Assembly (NCBI GenBank): GCA_964441285.1
Contig: CAYTUK010000007.1
Coordinates: 17,736 to 81,735 of the forward strand
DNA: 64,000 nucleotides
From: an uncultured Thiotrichaceae bacterium
Lineage (GTDB): Bacteria > Pseudomonadota > Gammaproteobacteria > SZUA-229
Direction of reading: 5' to 3'
The position numbers were made by a program, and so were the translations under genes. Of this stretch, positions 3,682 through 29,536 are shown piece by piece. The notes below the pieces were generated by a model. It worked only from the letters and a program-made list of their open reading frames with translations. It searched no databases and was not told where the DNA came from. Numbering within the stretch: position 1 is the stretch's first letter; each line of letters opens with the position of its first letter.

Positions 3682-4380
3682 ATGACGATAAAGATTGAAT
3701 ATTTTAGCGATGTATTGTGTGTCTGGGCTTACAGTGGGCAGATACGCATGGATAAACTTAAAGATGAATTTTCTGACCAGATTGAAATTGAATATCGTTT
3801 TGTTCCCATTTTTGGTGCTGGCAAACAGCATATTGAAAAAGTTTGGGAAGAGAATGGCGGGGCCAGAGGATTTAATCAGCATCTACAGGATGTGGCTAAA
3901 AAATGGGATCACATAACGCTGTCACCTGAGCTGTGGGTTACCGTTTCACCCGCATCGTCCATCGCCGCGCATTTATATTTAAAGGCTATTCAGTTACTGG
4001 TCAAACAGGATGAAATTGATGACCTGCCAGTGGCAAACTTTAATAACAGAACGCCGTTTGAAGAAGCACTCTGGTTATTTAGAGAGTCTTTTTTCTTTAA
4101 GGCGAAAGATATAGCGCAGCGTTGTGTGCAGGATGAAATTGCGGCAGAACTTGCACTACCAATAGAAAAGATTCATGGCTTAATGGATTCGGGAAAAGCC
4201 TATGCGGCATTGTACCTCGATGATGAGTCTTGGCAGACGTACAAAGTTCCTGGTAGTCCAACGTTGGTTTTAAATGAAGGGAGACAGTTACTTTATGGCA
4301 ATGTGGGTTATCGGATTATTCAGGCCAATGTGCGAGAATTACTGCATAACCCGGATCATGGTGAGGCAAGCTGGTGTTAA
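3682..4380 (+). CDS. DsbA/FrnE-like thioredoxin-fold protein with a single-Cys motif
   Basis: N-terminal IEYFSDVLCVWAY and late VPGSPTLVLNEG cis-Pro loop. Confidence 0.75.
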   Translation: MTIKIEYFSDVLCVWAYSGQIRMDKLKDEFSDQIEIEYRFVPIFGAGKQHIEKVWEENGGARGFNQHLQDVAKKWDHITLSPELWVTVSPASSIAAHLYLKAIQLLVKQDEIDDLPVANFNNRTPFEEALWLFRESFFFKAKDIAQRCVQDEIAAELALPIEKIHGLMDSGKAYAALYLDDESWQTYKVPGSPTLVLNEGRQLLYGNVGYRIIQANVRELLHNPDHGEASWC

Positions 4381-4625: not shown

Positions 4626-4633
4626 AAGAAACC

Positions 4634-4666
4634 TTGACCTGTGACCCAGGGTATAGGTTGTAGTAT
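4634..4666 (+). promoter_or_regulatory. MerR-family (CueR-like) metal-responsive promoter/operator for the YHS-copA unit
   Basis: TTGACC -35 overlapping the dyad ACCTGTGACCC-A-GGGTATAGGT, then TAGTAT after an over-long spacer. Resembles the E. coli PcopA ACCT..AGGT dyad. Confidence 0.65.
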
Positions 4667-4768
4667 TGGGTAGAGCTTGTATACATAGCTTATATATAGA
4701 CGCTTGTATCAGGAAACGAATGGATTCCTGTTTAGGATAAATAGATAACTTTAAATGAGGTGAGTATT

Positions 4769-5167
4769 ATGTTTGGTAAAAATTTGTTTGGTAAAAATAA
4801 AAACGTAACAGATAATACGACAAACAAACTGGAGCTGAAAGATATTGTGTGTGGCATGACCGTCACAGATAAAAGTGAGCACCATATTAATTTACAGAGC
4901 CATGATTATTATTTCTGTAGTAGCAGTTGTCACGATAAATTTAAAACTGATCCAGAACAGTATGTATCGCCACCTGATAGCAGTAAAAATGTGCAACTTA
5001 AAGATCCCGTCTGTGGTATGAATATTACTGCGGATAGTAATTTTCATCTTCACCATGATAATCAGGAATATTATTTTTGCAGCCAGGGGTGTGAAGATAA
5101 ATTTCAATCGGCACCAGATGAATATGTGAATTTAGACGATGCGGCAGGGCATTCTGTAAAAAAGTAA
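4769..5167 (+). CDS. Tandem YHS-domain metal-binding protein; probable N-terminus of a frameshift-fused CopA
   Basis: Two D(I/P)VCGM...YYFCS..C..KF...P..Y repeats; GAGGTG SD 6 nt before ATG 4769. Confidence 0.85.
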
Positions 5168-5222
5168 AAACGGAAATAGTGGATGATTGCTTGCATAAAG
5201 CAGGTGCCATTAATTCCGTTTT
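5158..5222 (+). promoter_or_regulatory. Candidate -1 programmed ribosomal frameshift signal
   Basis: In-frame A_AAA_AAG at 5158-5164, TAA at 5165-5167, and stem 5167-5182/5207-5222 (15 of 16 positions pair). The -1 frame is the copA frame. Confidence 0.7.
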
Positions 5223-7440
5223 CTATACCTGTCCGATGCACTCTGAGGTTACTCAGGAAAAGCCAGGTTCATGCCCAAAGTGTGGTATGGCATTAGAAAC
5301 GGCGGGTGCCCCGATAGCCATAACAAGCACAGAATATACCTGTCCAATGCACCCTGAAGTGATACAGGATCATCCCGGTAATTGTCCAAAATGCGGTATG
5401 GCACTGGAAGCAAAAACCATTGTTGCTGAAGATAAAAATGAAGAGCTTGACGATATGAGTCGGCGTTTCTGGTTTAGTACAGTGCTGGCAATACCCGTAT
5501 TTCTGCTTGCCATGATTGCTGATTTAATGCCGGCATTATTGCCTGATGCTTTATCCATGCAATATGTGCAATGGATTGAGTTCGTGCTGGCGACACCGGT
5601 TGTTTTCTGGGGTGGCTGGCCTTTTTATGTGCGCGCAGTACAATCGGTCAGAACATGGAACCTGAATATGTTTACTCTGATTGGTCTGGGAGTCTCTGTT
5701 ACCTGGATTTATAGTACTGTAGCGTTGTTGTTTCCAGAAATCTTTCCAAAAGTCATGCAAATGGAAGGCGGCATAGTCGATGTTTATTTTGAAGCTGCAG
5801 CAGTTATTACGGCTCTGGTTCTGTTGGGACAGGTGCTTGAGCTACGTGCTCGTAGTCAGACAAATTCAGCAATAAAAATGTTACTTGGTCTGGCACCAAA
5901 TACCGCACGTATTGTTCGTGATGATGGCAGTGAAGAAGATATTCCATTAGAGCAGGTGAAAGTTGGTGATGTGTTACGTGTCAGACCCGGTGAAAAAGTT
6001 CCGGTTGATGGTCGCGTTACCAGCGGCAGTAGTTCGATTGATGAATCAATGGTAAGTGGAGAACCGATTCCTGTTGGTAAAGAGGAAGGTGATCATGTTA
6101 TTGGTGCTACCGTTAATGGTACGGGTAGCCTATTAATGCGTACGGAAAAAGTTGGTGCAGATACGCTGTTGTCACAGATAGTCCACATGGTAAGTGAAGC
6201 ACAACGCTCACGCGCACCAATTCAAAAGCTGGCAGATGTGGTTGCCGCCTATTTTGTACCAGCCGTGGTGACTGTCGCTGTTATTGCTTTTTTTGTCTGG
6301 TGGCTTGCTGGCCCTGAGCCTCAGCTAGCTCATGCTGTGGTGAATGCGGTTGCCGTTTTAATTATTGCCTGTCCATGTGCATTAGGTCTGGCGACACCGA
6401 TGTCGATTATGGTTGGAACGGGTAAAGGTGCAACGATGGGGGTGTTGATTAAAAATGCTGAAGCGCTAGAAATTCTAGAAAAAGTTGATGTTCTGGTTGT
6501 CGATAAAACAGGGACCTTAACAGAAGGTAAACCAAAATTGGTCGCGGTTAAAACGGTGAATGATTTTGATGAGAACACAGTACTATCACTGGTTGCTAGT
6601 CTGGAGCGTTCGAGCGAGCACCCGTTGGCTGCGGCAATTGTACAGGGAGCAAAAGAACGTAATGTTAGTTTCTCACAAACCGACGAGTTTGAGTCGGTAA
6701 CCGGTAAAGGTGTTAGCGGCGTGGTGAATGCGAAGCGTGTGGCTTTGGGCAATCTTAAACTTATGCAAAGTTTAAATATAGATATGGGTGATTTATCTTC
6801 GCAGGCAGAAGCAGGGCGTGCTAAAGGTCAAACGGTTATGTTTATCTCGATTGATGGTCAGGCTGCGGGTCTCATTGGGGTGGCCGATCCGATTAAAGCT
6901 TCAACCAGCGAAGCAATTAACCATCTGCATAAAGCCGGGGTGCAGGTTGTAATGCTTACGGGAGACAGTAAAACAACTGCTGAAGCGGTTGCAAAAGAAT
7001 TGAACATTGACCGGGTGGAAGCCGAAGTATTGCCTGATCAAAAAGCCAGTATTGTTAAACAGCTTCAGACGGAAGGGAAAATTGTTGCTATGGCCGGTGA
7101 TGGGATTAACGATGCTCCAGCACTGGCACAATCTCATGTTGGTATTGCAATGGGAACAGGTGCTGATGTGGCAATGGAAAGTGCCGGAGTTACTCTGGTA
7201 AAAGGGGACTTGCGCGGCATTGTGAGAGCACGGCGACTCAGTCATGCGGTAATGAATAATATTCGGCAAAATTTATTTTTTGCGTTTATTTATAACCTGC
7301 TTGGTGTACCCGTTGCAGCGGGTGTGCTTTACCCATTTTTCGGTATATTACTGTCGCCCGTTATTGCCGCTGCAGCGATGAGTTTTAGTTCAGTCTCTGT
7401 GATTACAAATTCATTAAGGTTAAAGCATACGGAATTATAA
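5179..7440 (+). CDS. copA: Copper-translocating P1B-type ATPase (frame open from 5122; probably entered by frameshift)
   Basis: Two YTCPMH...CPKCGM metal-binding domains, [30 protein letters not shown] and MSFSS. Confidence 0.95.
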
Positions 7441-27271: not shown

Positions 27272-29536
27272 ATGTTAAGTAAAGAGCTGGAATCATCATT
27301 AAACAAAGCGTTTAATGATGCGCGCGAAAAACGCCATGAATACATTACGGTCGAGCATTTGTTGCTGTCGCTGTTAAACAATAACAGCGCCAACATTGTC
27401 TTACAGGCCTGTGGTGCGGATATCGAATTATTGAGCGTTGAGCTGATTGAATACCTTAACCATAATACCCCCGTCTTTGGTGACGTTGTTGGCGGTGAGG
27501 TACAGCCCACTTTGGGTTTTCAGCGCGTCCTGCAACGTGCCGTTTTTCATGTGCAATCTTCAGGAAAAAAAGAAGTGGTTGGAGCCAATGTACTCGTTGC
27601 CATGTTTGGTGAGCAGGAATCGCAGGCGGTTTATCTATTAAACCAGCAGAATGTAAACCGTCTTGATATTGTTAACTATATTTCTCACGGCATTACGAAA
27701 GTTCCTAACGAAACTGAAAAGCTTGAAGATCACTCGGAACAGACCGTCTCAACTGAGACTGAAGCACAACCACTGGAAAATTTTGCAACCAACCTGAATC
27801 AGCGTGCGATGCGTGGTCTGGTTGACCCATTGATCGGGCGTGATGCTGAAGTTGAGCGTACGGTTCAGGTATTGTGTCGGCGTAGAAAAAATAATCCACT
27901 GCTAGTCGGTGAAGCAGGCGTAGGGAAAACGGCGCTGGCCGAGGGACTGGCAAAACGTATTGTTGATAAGGAAGTGCCAGAAGTACTGCTGAATAACACC
28001 ATCTATTCACTGGATCTGGGTTCGTTGGTGGCGGGTACAAAATACCGTGGTGATTTTGAAAAAAGGCTTAAGGGTATATTAAAACAGCTTAAGCAAACCC
28101 CCGGTGCCATTTTATTTATTGATGAGATACATACCATTATTGGTGCAGGTTCGGCTTCGGGTGGTGTAATGGATGCATCGAATCTGATTAAACCCATGCT
28201 GGCAAGCGGTGAGCTTAAATGTATCGGTTCAACCACGTACACTGAATTTAGAAGCGTTTTCGAAAAAGATCATGCGCTTGCACGCCGGTTTCAGAAAATT
28301 GATCTGGAAGAACCCAGCGTCGAAGAAACCGTCGAAATTTTGAAAGGGTTAAAAACGCGCTTTGAAGAACATCATGATGTTAAATATAGCAATAATGCTC
28401 TGCGTGCGGCGGCGGAATTATCCGAGCGTTACATCATGGACCGTTTTTTACCTGACAAGGCCATTGACGTTATTGATGAAGCTGGTGCAAGTCGTCAGCT
28501 ACAATCGAGTGTGGCACGTAAAGTGAACAAAAAATCAATCAATGTGCATGATATTGAAGGCATTGTTGCAAGCATTGCCCGAATTCCTGCGAAAACAGTT
28601 AATACAACGGACACGGAAATGTTAAAAAATCTTGAGCGCGACTTAAACATGGTTGTTTTTGGTCAGGCTGAAGCAATTAGTTCACTGGTCACCTCTATTC
28701 GTATGGCACGTTCTGGTCTTGCCGACCCTGAAAAACCGATTGGCTCCTTCCTGTTCGCCGGACCGACAGGGGTGGGAAAAACAGAAGTTTGTCGGCAGCT
28801 TGCAAGTGTTCTGGGTGTCGAATTAATTCGTTTTGATATGTCTGAATACATGGAGCGTCATACCGTATCGAGATTGATTGGTGCACCGCCAGGTTATGTT
28901 GGTTTTGATGATGGTGGTTTGTTGACAGAAGCGGTAAATAAACAACCACATTGTGTTTTATTGCTGGATGAAATAGAAAAAGCACACTCTGAAGTATTTA
29001 ATATTTTATTACAGGTCATGGATCACGGCACTTTAACCGACAGTAACGGGCGTAAAACAGATTTTCGGAATGCCATTTTAGTCATGACCAGTAATGCAGG
29101 TGCGCAGTTGATTTCACGTCGTTCAATGGGCTTTACTGAGCAGCAAAATGAACTCGATGGGATGGAAGAAATTAAGAAAATATTTACCCCGGAATTCAGA
29201 AATCGTCTGGATTCCATTGTTCATTTTGATCCACTGGATGCGCATGCGCTGGCAAATGTTGTGGATAAATTCCTGATAGCACTTGAAATGCAGCTCAACG
29301 AGAAAAAAGTGACACTAAGTGTGGATAAGGCAGCTCGTGCCTGGCTGGCAGAAAAAGGTTATGACCCAAAAATGGGTGCAAGGCCGATGGCGCGAGTTAT
29401 TCAGGAGCAGGTAAAAAAACCGTTGGCGGATGAACTGCTATTTGGGGAACTCAAAAAAGGCGGCCAGGTAACCGTGACAGTTACGGCTGAAAATACGCTG
29501 AATATTGCAGTCGAATCTGAGTCACTCAAGGCCTGA
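27272..29536 (+). CDS. clpA: ATP-dependent Clp protease ATP-binding subunit
   Basis: Two AAA modules ([16 protein letters not shown]); [13 protein letters not shown]. Confidence 0.97.

What the first reader, a model, noticed from the sequence alone, without database searches (positions are those of the whole stretch)
4769..7440. Candidate -1 programmed frameshift: one locus giving a free tandem-YHS metal-binding protein and a YHS2-CopA pump
Seen: the YHS ORF ends GTA AAA AAG TAA, so it carries the in-frame heptamer A_AAA_AAG (5158-5164) followed at once by a stop. The -1 frame reads AAA AAA GTA AAA ACG GAA ATA GTG... straight into copA. Downstream, AAAACGGAAATAGTGG (5167-5182) pairs with CCATTAATTCCGTTTT (5207-5222) at 15 of 16 positions (one G-U). 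Its first C-G pair lies 6 nt after the heptamer, and an upper TGCTT/AAGCA stem caps it. The stem buries the ORF-finder GTG at 5179, which has no good SD. A weak AGGG lies 8 nt upstream of the heptamer. Established: A_AAA_AAG with a 3' stem is the dnaX/IS3-type -1 signal, and E. coli copA uses a -1 shift to make the short chaperone CopA(Z). Inference: here the logic is inverted. The default product is a 132-aa soluble YHS-YHS protein, and only shifted ribosomes make a ~890-aa ATPase, which would fix a chaperone-excess stoichiometry with a different (YHS) domain.
Basis: partly seen in the sequence, partly recalled or inferred. Interest (0 to 1): 0.9.

Follow-up and report, generated by a model that had tools for sequence, protein, structure and literature searches.

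The report
Frameshifted copper pump with slippery site
A vent bacterium's copper-pump gene is split by a one-base frameshift that sits on a classic ribosome-slippage signal, so the full pump may be made only by slipping ribosomes, but no relative shares the signal and this is untested.

Summary
A 132-codon tandem-YHS ORF (4769-5167) ends in A_AAA_AAG plus TAA. copA continues in the -1 frame. A 15+6 bp hairpin starts 2 nt after the heptamer, with its first G:C pair after 6 nt.

The A6 run is real. Contigs from 4 runs of 3 studies match 4700-5700 with no difference at 26-112x.

Comparison changes the reading. In 164 of 189 homologous loci, including the closest relatives, YHS is fused in frame to the pump, and none carries the heptamer. 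So this is a one-lineage 1-nt frameshift in an ancestrally fused YHS2-HMBD2-CopA gene, not a conserved recoding site.

Both halves evolve at the normal rate and keep their motifs. The hairpin is exceptional: z -6.1, rank 1 of 164 loci, and 5 of 3000 synonymous recodings fold as well. The heptamer alone is not special, with 124 in-phase copies in this genome.

Best reading (about 0.42): a compensatory -1 frameshift gives an 890-aa pump beside excess free YHS2. Main rival (about 0.3): termination-reinitiation at GTG 5179 or TTG 5191, both inside the hairpin, gives a YHS-less pump of a kind that relatives have naturally. Gene decay and artefact are less likely. No expression data exist.

The parts
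4769..5167 (+). Tandem-YHS ORF (132 codons plus TAA), the default product. GAGGTG Shine-Dalgarno at 4757-4762.
   Evidence: Pfam YHS PF04945, 2 stretches, E 8.7e-25. This exact 132-aa protein is on record on 4 contigs.
5146..5149 (+). Weak Shine-Dalgarno-like AGGG, 8 nt upstream of the heptamer.
   Evidence: Read directly. Its role is inferred only.
5158..5164 (+). Slippery heptamer A_AAA_AAG in the zero-frame phase.
   Evidence: Only a tRNA-Lys(UUU) was found in the assembly (34 tRNAs, an incomplete set).
5165..5167 (+). Zero-frame stop TAA directly after the heptamer.
5167..5222 (+). Hairpin of 9 + 6 bp lower stem and a 6-bp cap. The first G:C pair is 6 nt after the heptamer. It buries GTG 5179 and part of TTG 5191.
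   Evidence: fold; rank 1 of 164 loci, z -6.1; 5 of 3000 synonymous recodings; not a genomic repeat; no terminator-like call and no Rfam family on the stem.
5164..7440 (+). -1 frame continuation: 758 codons plus stop, comprising linker, 2 HMBD motifs and the CopA P1B-type ATPase. With the 132 upstream codons this gives an 890-aa trans-frame product.
   Evidence: TIGR01511 595 bits against cut-off 397; 80-82% identity to fused relatives.
5179..5181 (+). GTG, a possible independent or reinitiation start, 11 nt after the stop. Only GGA (5172-5174) serves as a Shine-Dalgarno. It is paired in the stem.
5191..5193 (+). TTG, the start chosen by a gene caller (749-aa protein on record).
5224..5304 (+). 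First HMBD motif (YTCPMH...CPKCGM).
5335..5415 (+). Second HMBD motif.
   Evidence: PF19335, 2 stretches, E 8.8e-28.

Best explanation
An ancestrally single gene, YHS-YHS-linker-HMBD-HMBD-CopA, carries in this lineage a real 1-nt frameshift inside an A-run in the linker. Standard decoding ends at TAA 5165-5167 and releases a soluble 132-aa tandem-YHS metal-binding protein.

A minority of ribosomes slip -1 on A_AAA_AAG. The two tRNA-Lys(UUU) re-pair from AAA-AAG to AAA-AAA. The adjacent stop and the hairpin, whose G:C core starts 6 nt downstream, hold the ribosome on the heptamer. These ribosomes read on through the linker into copA and make an 890-aa pump with the ancestral architecture.

This makes it a lineage-specific, compensatory -1 frameshift site of the dnaX/IS911 type that also fixes an excess of free YHS2 over pump. 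Some reinitiation at GTG 5179 or TTG 5191 may add a YHS-less pump.

Shown: the DNA state, the signals, the ancestral fusion, and normal evolutionary rates of both halves. Inferred: that slippage happens, how efficient it is, and that it was selected.
For: - Heptamer in phase, immediate stop, and -1 frame open into copA.
- Hairpin at dnaX-like spacing, MFE -24.3, stable in a larger context. It is the most structured of 164 homologous linker segments (z -6.1, next -3.2). It is stronger than 2995 of 3000 synonymous recodings and is not a repeat element.
- Among 132 in-phase A_AAA_AAG sites in this genome it ranks 2nd for downstream structure. It is one of only 2 with a -1 continuation of 100 codons or more. 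The other is an ordinary overlapping gene pair with ATG and a Shine-Dalgarno.
- Homology to fused relatives crosses the shift point, so the -1 product restores the ancestral protein.
- Both halves are intact and not accelerated. Residues unique to one sequence in the pump part number 33 for the window, against 30 for G011 and 19 each for G001 and G002. In YHS2 the counts are 4 against 4-6. All P-type motifs are present.
- Candidate independent starts have only GGA-type Shine-Dalgarno sequences and lie inside the stem.
- Only tRNA-Lys(UUU) was found. The same heptamer with a stem-loop and an upstream SD-like element gives 70-80% shifting in E. coli dnaX, which has a single tRNA-Lys (PMC6787027, passages). 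A_AAA_AAG is among the most efficient motifs when stimulators are present (PMC4066793, passages).
- A6 is confirmed in contigs of 3 studies.
Against: - There is no conservation. None of the fused homologs has the heptamer or this hairpin.
- In-phase A_AAA_AAG is common and not avoided here (124 observed against 93 +/- 9.5 expected). The motif alone is therefore weak evidence and is presumably tolerated.
- An A7-to-A6 deletion would put the heptamer in phase automatically, so its phase is not independent evidence.
- Starts at 5179 and 5191 exist close to the stop, and YHS-less pumps occur naturally, so the fusion product is not required.
- Homologs are found frameshifted at other, non-slippery places: G079, G080, L176, L179, L183, P0002-P0004. 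Broken copies of this gene are therefore not rare in assemblies.
- The hairpin could have arisen in one mutational step, such as quasi-palindrome template switching, rather than by selection.
- dnaX of this genome has no A_AAA_AAG, so there is no internal positive control.
- Only contigs, not raw reads, were laid.
Confidence: 0.42

Rival explanations
1. A split operon with translational coupling. The frameshift turned one gene into two. Ribosomes that terminate at TAA 5165-5167 have already melted the lower stem and reinitiate at GTG 5179 or TTG 5191, giving a 749-753-aa HMBD2-CopA without YHS. The hairpin blocks independent initiation, so pump synthesis depends on, and is a fixed fraction of, YHS2 translation. 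Frameshifting is negligible.
For: The stop-to-start distances are 11 and 23 nt, and both starts are paired in the hairpin. A 749-aa protein from TTG 5191 is what a gene caller recorded. Natural pumps that begin 4-9 residues before the first HMBD and lack YHS exist at 79-82% identity: P0049 of 746 aa and P0099 of 743 aa. A separate YHS gene upstream of a pump gene occurs elsewhere (L103). The linker's CxDxxC motif, conserved in the fused relatives, is lost here, as expected if the tether is no longer used.
Against: The starts are GTG and TTG with only a GGA as Shine-Dalgarno. The hairpin of 21 bp over 56 nt is much larger than needed to mask a start. It sits at the spacing typical of -1 stimulators, directly after the most shift-prone bacterial heptamer.
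Confidence: 0.3
2. A young pseudogene. The frameshift simply inactivated copA. The heptamer is a by-product of an indel in an A-run, the hairpin is a mutational accident, and the pump is not made in useful amounts.
For: No relative shares the arrangement. Other homologs are also seen frameshifted. A second P1B ATPase exists in the genome (C1, 36% identity, 835-aa frame).
Against: The 758 downstream codons have no further lesion. All catalytic motifs are kept, and unique substitutions are no more frequent than in an intact relative (33 against 30). The paralog is only 36% identical and is probably not a substitute. The allele is the only one seen in contigs from 3 studies. The linker has diverged strongly, which argues against a very recent event.
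Confidence: 0.13
3. The hairpin is a leaky transcription terminator or attenuator between the YHS gene and copA. If the A:U base pairs are left open, the stem is followed by TTTTCTAT. This would lower copA mRNA relative to YHS2 mRNA.
For: An A-run, a hairpin and a T-rich tail are present at 5167-5230.
Against: The terminator scan did not call it. The stem is long, interrupted and AT-rich, and only 4 consecutive T follow it. It lies inside the conserved reading frame of the pump.
Confidence: 0.05
4. A sequencing or assembly artefact. The true sequence has A7 and one continuous ORF.
For: The site is a homopolymer. Only contigs, which drop rare variants, could be laid.
Against: Identical A6 appears in contigs of 4 runs from 3 studies at depth 26-112 with no indel. 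The window assembly and a separate public protein record agree.
Confidence: 0.04

Closest known systems
E. coli dnaX -1 programmed frameshift (tau/gamma)
   Same: Identical heptamer A_AAA_AAG, a downstream stem-loop a few nt away, an upstream SD-like element, and decoding by a single tRNA-Lys(UUU) (PMC6787027, passages; window).
   Different: In dnaX the shifted ribosome stops at once and makes the shorter product, and the signal is conserved. Here the shifted ribosome makes the longer product, the SD-like element is only AGGG, and no homolog shares the signal. No Rfam frameshift element matched. This genome's own dnaX has no such heptamer.
IS911/IS3 OrfA-OrfAB frameshift
   Same: The topology is the same. 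A short default product ends just after A_AAA_AAG, a -1 shift stimulated by a stem-loop fuses it to the downstream ORF, and the downstream ORF also has a weak non-ATG start of its own near the signal. The IS911 AUU start is known to me only from a title in the reference list of PMC4066793.
   Different: This is a chromosomal metal pump, not a transposase, and it is not a conserved family feature.
E. coli copA frameshift giving the chaperone CopA(Z)/CopZ
   Same: A copper P1B ATPase gene that yields a small soluble metal-binding protein and a pump from one locus by -1 frameshifting (PMC10187127 and PMC5009743, passages).
   Different: The logic is inverted. In E. coli the shift truncates after the first metal-binding domain and standard decoding gives the pump. 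The domain there is of the HMA/CopZ type, while here it is tandem YHS. The E. coli slippery site and stimulators are different (recalled; the primary paper was not held).
Compensatory frameshifting on an indel ('corrective' or 'savior indel' class)
   Same: A DNA indel in a homopolymer run is partly compensated at translation (PMC5009743, passages).
   Different: In that class the unshifted product is usually useless. Here the unshifted product is an intact two-domain metal-binding protein, and a strong stimulator is present.
Natural separate YHS genes and YHS-less HMBD2-CopA pumps
   Same: L103 has a small YHS ORF directly upstream of a pump gene. P0049 and P0099 are pumps that start just before the first HMBD.
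   Different: Those have ordinary ATG starts and no overlap-free -1 continuation, heptamer or hairpin.

Membership tests
-1 programmed ribosomal frameshift site (dnaX/IS3 type) | X_XXY_YYZ heptamer in the zero-frame phase | tested here: met
   A_AAA_AAG at 5158-5164 in the phase of the ORF from 4769. Such in-phase heptamers are common in this genome (124).
-1 programmed ribosomal frameshift site (dnaX/IS3 type) | Stable downstream RNA structure about 5-9 nt from the heptamer | tested here: met
   Hairpin at 5167-5222, with its G:C core from 5171. MFE -24.3. z -3.8 to -6.1.
-1 programmed ribosomal frameshift site (dnaX/IS3 type) | -1 frame open into a functional coding region | tested here: met
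   758 codons encode HMBD x2 and a complete Cu P-type ATPase.
-1 programmed ribosomal frameshift site (dnaX/IS3 type) | Heptamer, frame arrangement and structure conserved among homologs | tested here: not met
   164 of 189 loci are in-frame fusions. None of the other broken copies has the heptamer. The hairpin is unique.
-1 programmed ribosomal frameshift site (dnaX/IS3 type) | Trans-frame protein detected, dependent on heptamer and structure | not testable with these tools
   No RNA run is listed and no proteomics is available.
-1 programmed ribosomal frameshift site (dnaX/IS3 type) | AAG read by tRNA-Lys(UUU) only, with no CUU isoacceptor | tested here: inconclusive
   Only Lys-UUU was found, but only 34 tRNAs are assembled and several others are missing.
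P1B-1 copper-exporting ATPase (CopA) | Family model above cut-off, with CPC, DKTGT and GDGxND motifs | tested here: met
   TIGR01511 595 bits (cut-off 397) and TIGR01525 631 bits (cut-off 346). The motifs are visible in the alignment.
YHS domain protein (PF04945) | YHS model above the gathering score | tested here: met
   86.9 bits against 30.3, in 2 stretches.
E. coli-type copA recoding (CopA(Z)) | The shift truncates after the first metal-binding domain, and standard decoding gives the pump | tested here: not met
   Here standard decoding gives the small protein and the shift would give the pump.
Translationally coupled gene pair (termination-reinitiation) | A start codon within a few to about 20 nt of the upstream stop, with a usable ribosome-binding site | tested here: inconclusive
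   GTG is 11 nt and TTG 23 nt after the stop. Only a GGA serves as Shine-Dalgarno, and both starts are paired in the stem.

The most novel reading that the evidence does not exclude
A programmed frameshift caught near its birth. A 1-nt loss in an A-run split a fused YHS2-CopA gene. The lineage then kept, or built, an unusually strong hairpin at stimulator distance, at the cost of a conserved CxDxxC linker motif. One mRNA now delivers a fixed excess of free tandem-YHS metal-binding protein over an 890-aa pump. This is the reverse of the E. coli CopA/CopA(Z) arrangement and uses a different metal-binding fold.
Probability: 0.33. Interest if true: 0.7.

Novelty: new member of a known kind. Interest (0 to 1): 0.45.

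Why it matters
If slippage is shown, this would be a second and independent case of a copper pump locus using -1 frameshifting to set a ratio of small metal-binding protein to pump. It would have the opposite polarity to E. coli and a YHS domain instead of a CopZ-like domain.

It would also be a rare example of how a recoding site can arise from an indel in a homopolymer plus a newly acquired hairpin, because the fused ancestral state is preserved in every relative examined.

It would give a first handle on what free YHS domains do next to a Cu ATPase.

If it is only coupling or decay, it is an ordinary split gene. Annotators should still note that the two ORFs are halves of one ancestral gene.

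Tried and rejected
- **RNA evidence.** No RNA holder was listed among the public runs, so expression could not be examined. Only Logan contigs, not raw reads, could be laid, so a minority A7 allele was not tested.
- **Internal positive control.** The dnaX open frame of this genome (C9, 653 codons) has no AAAAAAG or AAAAAAA. The script printed none before stopping on a faulty third pattern.
- **Genome-wide avoidance of the heptamer as a sign of shiftiness.** It is not avoided.
- **A second candidate site.** C11 near 29257 has an in-phase heptamer and a 920-codon -1 continuation. It is an ordinary overlapping gene pair with AGGA plus ATG.
- **Hairpin as a repeat element.** There are no other copies in the genome.
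- **Hairpin as a known RNA family or simple terminator.** Neither was found.
- **Copper-regulator (MerR-type) operator upstream.** Only a 12-nt AT palindrome at 4687-4704 was reported. The TTGACC at 4634-4639 with an imperfect dyad was seen by eye only.
- **dN/dS.** Not attempted because the relatives are only 53-82% identical and silent sites would be saturated. Counts of unique residues were used instead.
- **Closer relatives.** The best non-self pump hit among 5.8 billion proteins is 84% identical, so the age of the frameshift cannot be bracketed.
- **Short YHS2 proteins found by homology.** P0002, P0003 and P0004 are frameshifted at other positions and are not further examples of this site. 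Their DNA could not be fetched.
- **Primary E. coli copA paper.** It was not held.
- **Supplements.** The supplement tables of the heptamer survey (PMC4066793) were not seen. They may list efficiencies per motif.
- **Complex and structure prediction.** Not used, because no binding claim is made.
Full report
**What is there.**
- The window holds a 132-codon ORF from ATG 4769, with a GAGGTG Shine-Dalgarno at 4757-4762. It ends GTA AAA AAG TAA at 5156-5167.
- Pfam finds two YHS domains in it (PF04945, 86.9 bits against a cut-off of 30.3).
- The next long ORF is in the -1 frame, open from 5122 to the stop at 7438-7440.
- It holds two HMBD motifs (PF19335), the E1-E2 ATPase domain and the HAD domain. 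It passes the NCBIfam copper P-type ATPase model (TIGR01511, 595 bits against 397).
- The heptamer A_AAA_AAG (5158-5164) is in the zero-frame phase. The stop follows at once, and AGGG lies 8 nt upstream.

**The hairpin.**
- 5167-5222 folds into 9 + 6 base pairs with a 6-bp cap. MFE is -24.3 kcal/mol and 1 of 200 shuffles is as stable.
- The same structure is the centroid in a 201-nt context.
- Four A:U pairs come first, so the G:C core starts 6 nt after the heptamer.
- GTG 5179 and part of TTG 5191 are paired.

**Is the frameshift real?**
- Six public runs hold all sampled words of 4700-5700.
- Contigs of four of them, from three studies, cover the stretch with 0 other letters and 0 gaps at word depth 26-112. 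X1 and X4 have equal contig lengths and may be one data set.
- The exact 132-aa protein is on record from 4 contigs.
- An assembly slip is therefore unlikely. Contigs cannot exclude a minority A7 allele.

**What relatives show.**
- I searched 61 related genomes and then all 97 genomes of the family. I also fetched 80 metagenome loci and 80 genome loci with tandem-YHS relatives.
- The 189 loci other than the window's own were not de-duplicated. They sort as follows:

| Class | Loci |
|---|---|
| YHS and pump in one open frame | 164 |
| YHS ORF closed, no pump on that strand within the locus | 14 |
| YHS frame runs off the locus | 5 |
| No YHS hit | 1 |
| Scored 'split' | 5 |

- Of the 5 'split' loci, L097 is a different arrangement. 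L103 is a small YHS gene followed by a YHS-pump gene with its own ATG.
- L176, L179 and L183 are frameshifts at other places without a slippery heptamer. L183 has two shifts within 200 nt.
- In the family search, 44 of 53 match rows lie in open frames of 691-898 aa. The 8 short ones other than the window's own break down as:
  - two (G073, G108) checked as cut by a contig end with the pump still in frame;
  - two (G006/L005, G025/L013) whose frame ran off the stored locus and one (G115) not checked, all three lying close to a contig start by their coordinates;
  - one separate small YHS ORF (G020);
  - two frameshifts at other, non-slippery places, G079 after the first HMBD and G080 in the membrane part.
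- The two same-genus genomes (G001, G002) and G011 have fused genes of 869-875 aa.
- Homology to them crosses the shift point. Residues just before the heptamer match in frame 0, and residues just after it, upstream of GTG 5179, match in frame -1.
- The ancestral state is therefore a fusion, and a -1 shift on the heptamer would restore it as an 890-aa protein.
- Losing one A from an A7 run would create the stop and put the heptamer in phase in one step. The phase is therefore not independent evidence.

**Are the halves alive?**
- In a four-way alignment, the pump part is 80-82% identical to G001, G002 and G011, and YHS2 is 53-57% identical. These match the identities the relatives show to each other.
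- Positions where one sequence differs from three identical others number 33 for the window, against 30 for G011 and 19 each for the sister pair. In YHS2 the counts are 4 against 4-6.
- There is no second lesion in 758 codons, and the CPC, DKTGT and GDGxND motifs are kept.
- Only the linker is unusual. It is 15-30% identical to relatives, against 52% between G001 and G002. It is four residues longer and has lost the CxDxxC motif that the fused family members keep.

**How special are the signals?**
- The heptamer alone is not special. There are 124 in-phase copies in 1465 ORFs of 200 codons or more, against 93 +/- 9.5 after codon shuffling.
- The hairpin is special:
  - Among the 60-nt segments preceding the first HMBD in 164 loci, it has z -6.1 against -3.2 for the next, at only 38% G+C.
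  - Holding the amino-acid sequence fixed, 5 of 3000 recodings drawn from this genome's codon usage fold as well. So does 1 of 3000 codon permutations.
  - It ranks 11th of 1406 for structure after any AAAAAAG in the genome, where the leaders look like terminators. It ranks 2nd of 132 in-phase sites.
  - It is not a repeat, not a simple terminator by the scan and not an Rfam family.
- Only tRNA-Lys(UUU) was found, but the assembled tRNA set is incomplete.

**Mechanism.**
- The cassette copies the E. coli dnaX signal: the same heptamer, a downstream stem-loop, an upstream SD-like element and a single tRNA-Lys. dnaX shifts at 70-80% (PMC6787027, passages).
- A_AAA_AAG is among the most efficient motifs once stimulators are present (PMC4066793, passages).
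- I therefore think that a measurable share of ribosomes slips here and makes the fused pump, while most terminate and release free YHS2.
- Because nothing is conserved, I class it as a lineage-specific compensatory frameshift on an indel, a class reviewed in PMC5009743 (passages), rather than an established programmed site.

**The main rival.**
- The main rival is termination-reinitiation. GTG 5179 and TTG 5191 lie 11 and 23 nt after the stop.
- A gene caller recorded the 749-aa protein that starts at TTG 5191.
- Pumps without YHS that begin 4-9 residues before the first HMBD occur naturally at 79-82% identity (P0049, P0099).
- A start-masking hairpin is also what a coupled pair would use.
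- The two mechanisms are not exclusive, and either gives an excess of YHS2 over pump.
- A hairpin created in one step by template switching on a quasi-palindrome would remove the argument from selection. It would not remove the hairpin's effect on ribosomes.

**Other rivals.**
- Young pseudogene: unlikely given intact, normally evolving halves, but it cannot be excluded if the event is recent. A 36%-identical second P1B ATPase exists.
- Attenuator: weak.
- Artefact: largely excluded.

**Comparison with known systems.**
- The site works like IS911 OrfA/OrfAB and uses dnaX-type signals.
- It recalls E. coli copA, where a -1 shift makes the chaperone CopZ (PMC10187127 and PMC5009743, passages). 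The polarity here is opposite and the metal-binding domain is different.
- It fails the conservation criterion for a programmed site and could not be tested for a trans-frame product.
- My searches of the held library turned up no frameshift linked to a YHS domain:
  - 'YHS domain' + 'P-type ATPase' + copper gave 2 papers;
  - 'programmed ribosomal frameshifting' + copA + chaperone gave 36 papers, of which 10 were listed.
- For these two searches I read only the result listings, plus passages of two papers.

**Verdict.** This is a good experimental candidate of moderate interest: one lineage, no expression data and a credible non-recoding alternative.

Noticed in passing
window 4772-4798: The YHS2 ORF begins with a 12-nt unit, TTTGGTAAAAAT, repeated 15 nt apart (FGKN-L-FGKN). 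It lies within a 10-residue N-terminal insertion that G001, G002 and G011 lack.
   Followed up: no
window 5185-5206; L004, L006, L003, L008, L009, L011: Fused relatives keep a CxDxxC motif (for example CPDGSC) in the linker just before the first HMBD. The window has lost the second Cys exactly where the hairpin's cap lies. The function of the motif is unknown.
   Followed up: partly
G079:C24 (L197), G080:C25 (L196), L176, L179, L183; proteins P0002, P0003, P0004: Homologous YHS-CopA genes appear frameshifted at various other, non-slippery positions in several assemblies. One of them is named for a sulfur-oxidizing endosymbiont of Gigantopelta aegis. They may be assembly errors or real recurrent breakage.
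   Followed up: partly
G000:C11 about 29233-29263: This is the only other in-phase A_AAA_AAG in the genome with a long (920-codon) -1 continuation. It is an ordinary stop/start overlap between a periplasmic-binding-like ORF and a hybrid sensor kinase with AGGA plus ATG, and it has no hairpin.
   Followed up: yes
G000:C9:17007-19303 and G000:C1:165102-167027: There are more metal genes elsewhere in the genome. One is a 174-aa frame with a YHS match beside a 704-aa frame holding three HMBD-like repeats. Another is a second P1B ATPase, 36% identical to this one.
   Followed up: no
whole genome G000: In-phase A_AAA_AAG is slightly over-represented rather than avoided (124 against 93 +/- 9.5). The dnaX open frame has no such heptamer.
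   Followed up: yes
window 3682-4380 and 4630-4666: A DsbA/FrnE-like thioredoxin-fold ORF upstream is syntenic in G001 and G002. It has no NCBIfam hit. Between it and the YHS ORF lies TTGACC with an imperfect dyad that might be a MerR-type promoter. This was seen by eye only and not confirmed by the repeat finder.
   Followed up: partly
L103 560-660: A metagenome contig has a small single-YHS ORF ending in TGA. It is followed 30 nt later by a YHS-pump gene with its own ATG in the same frame, a natural two-gene version of the arrangement.
   Followed up: partly
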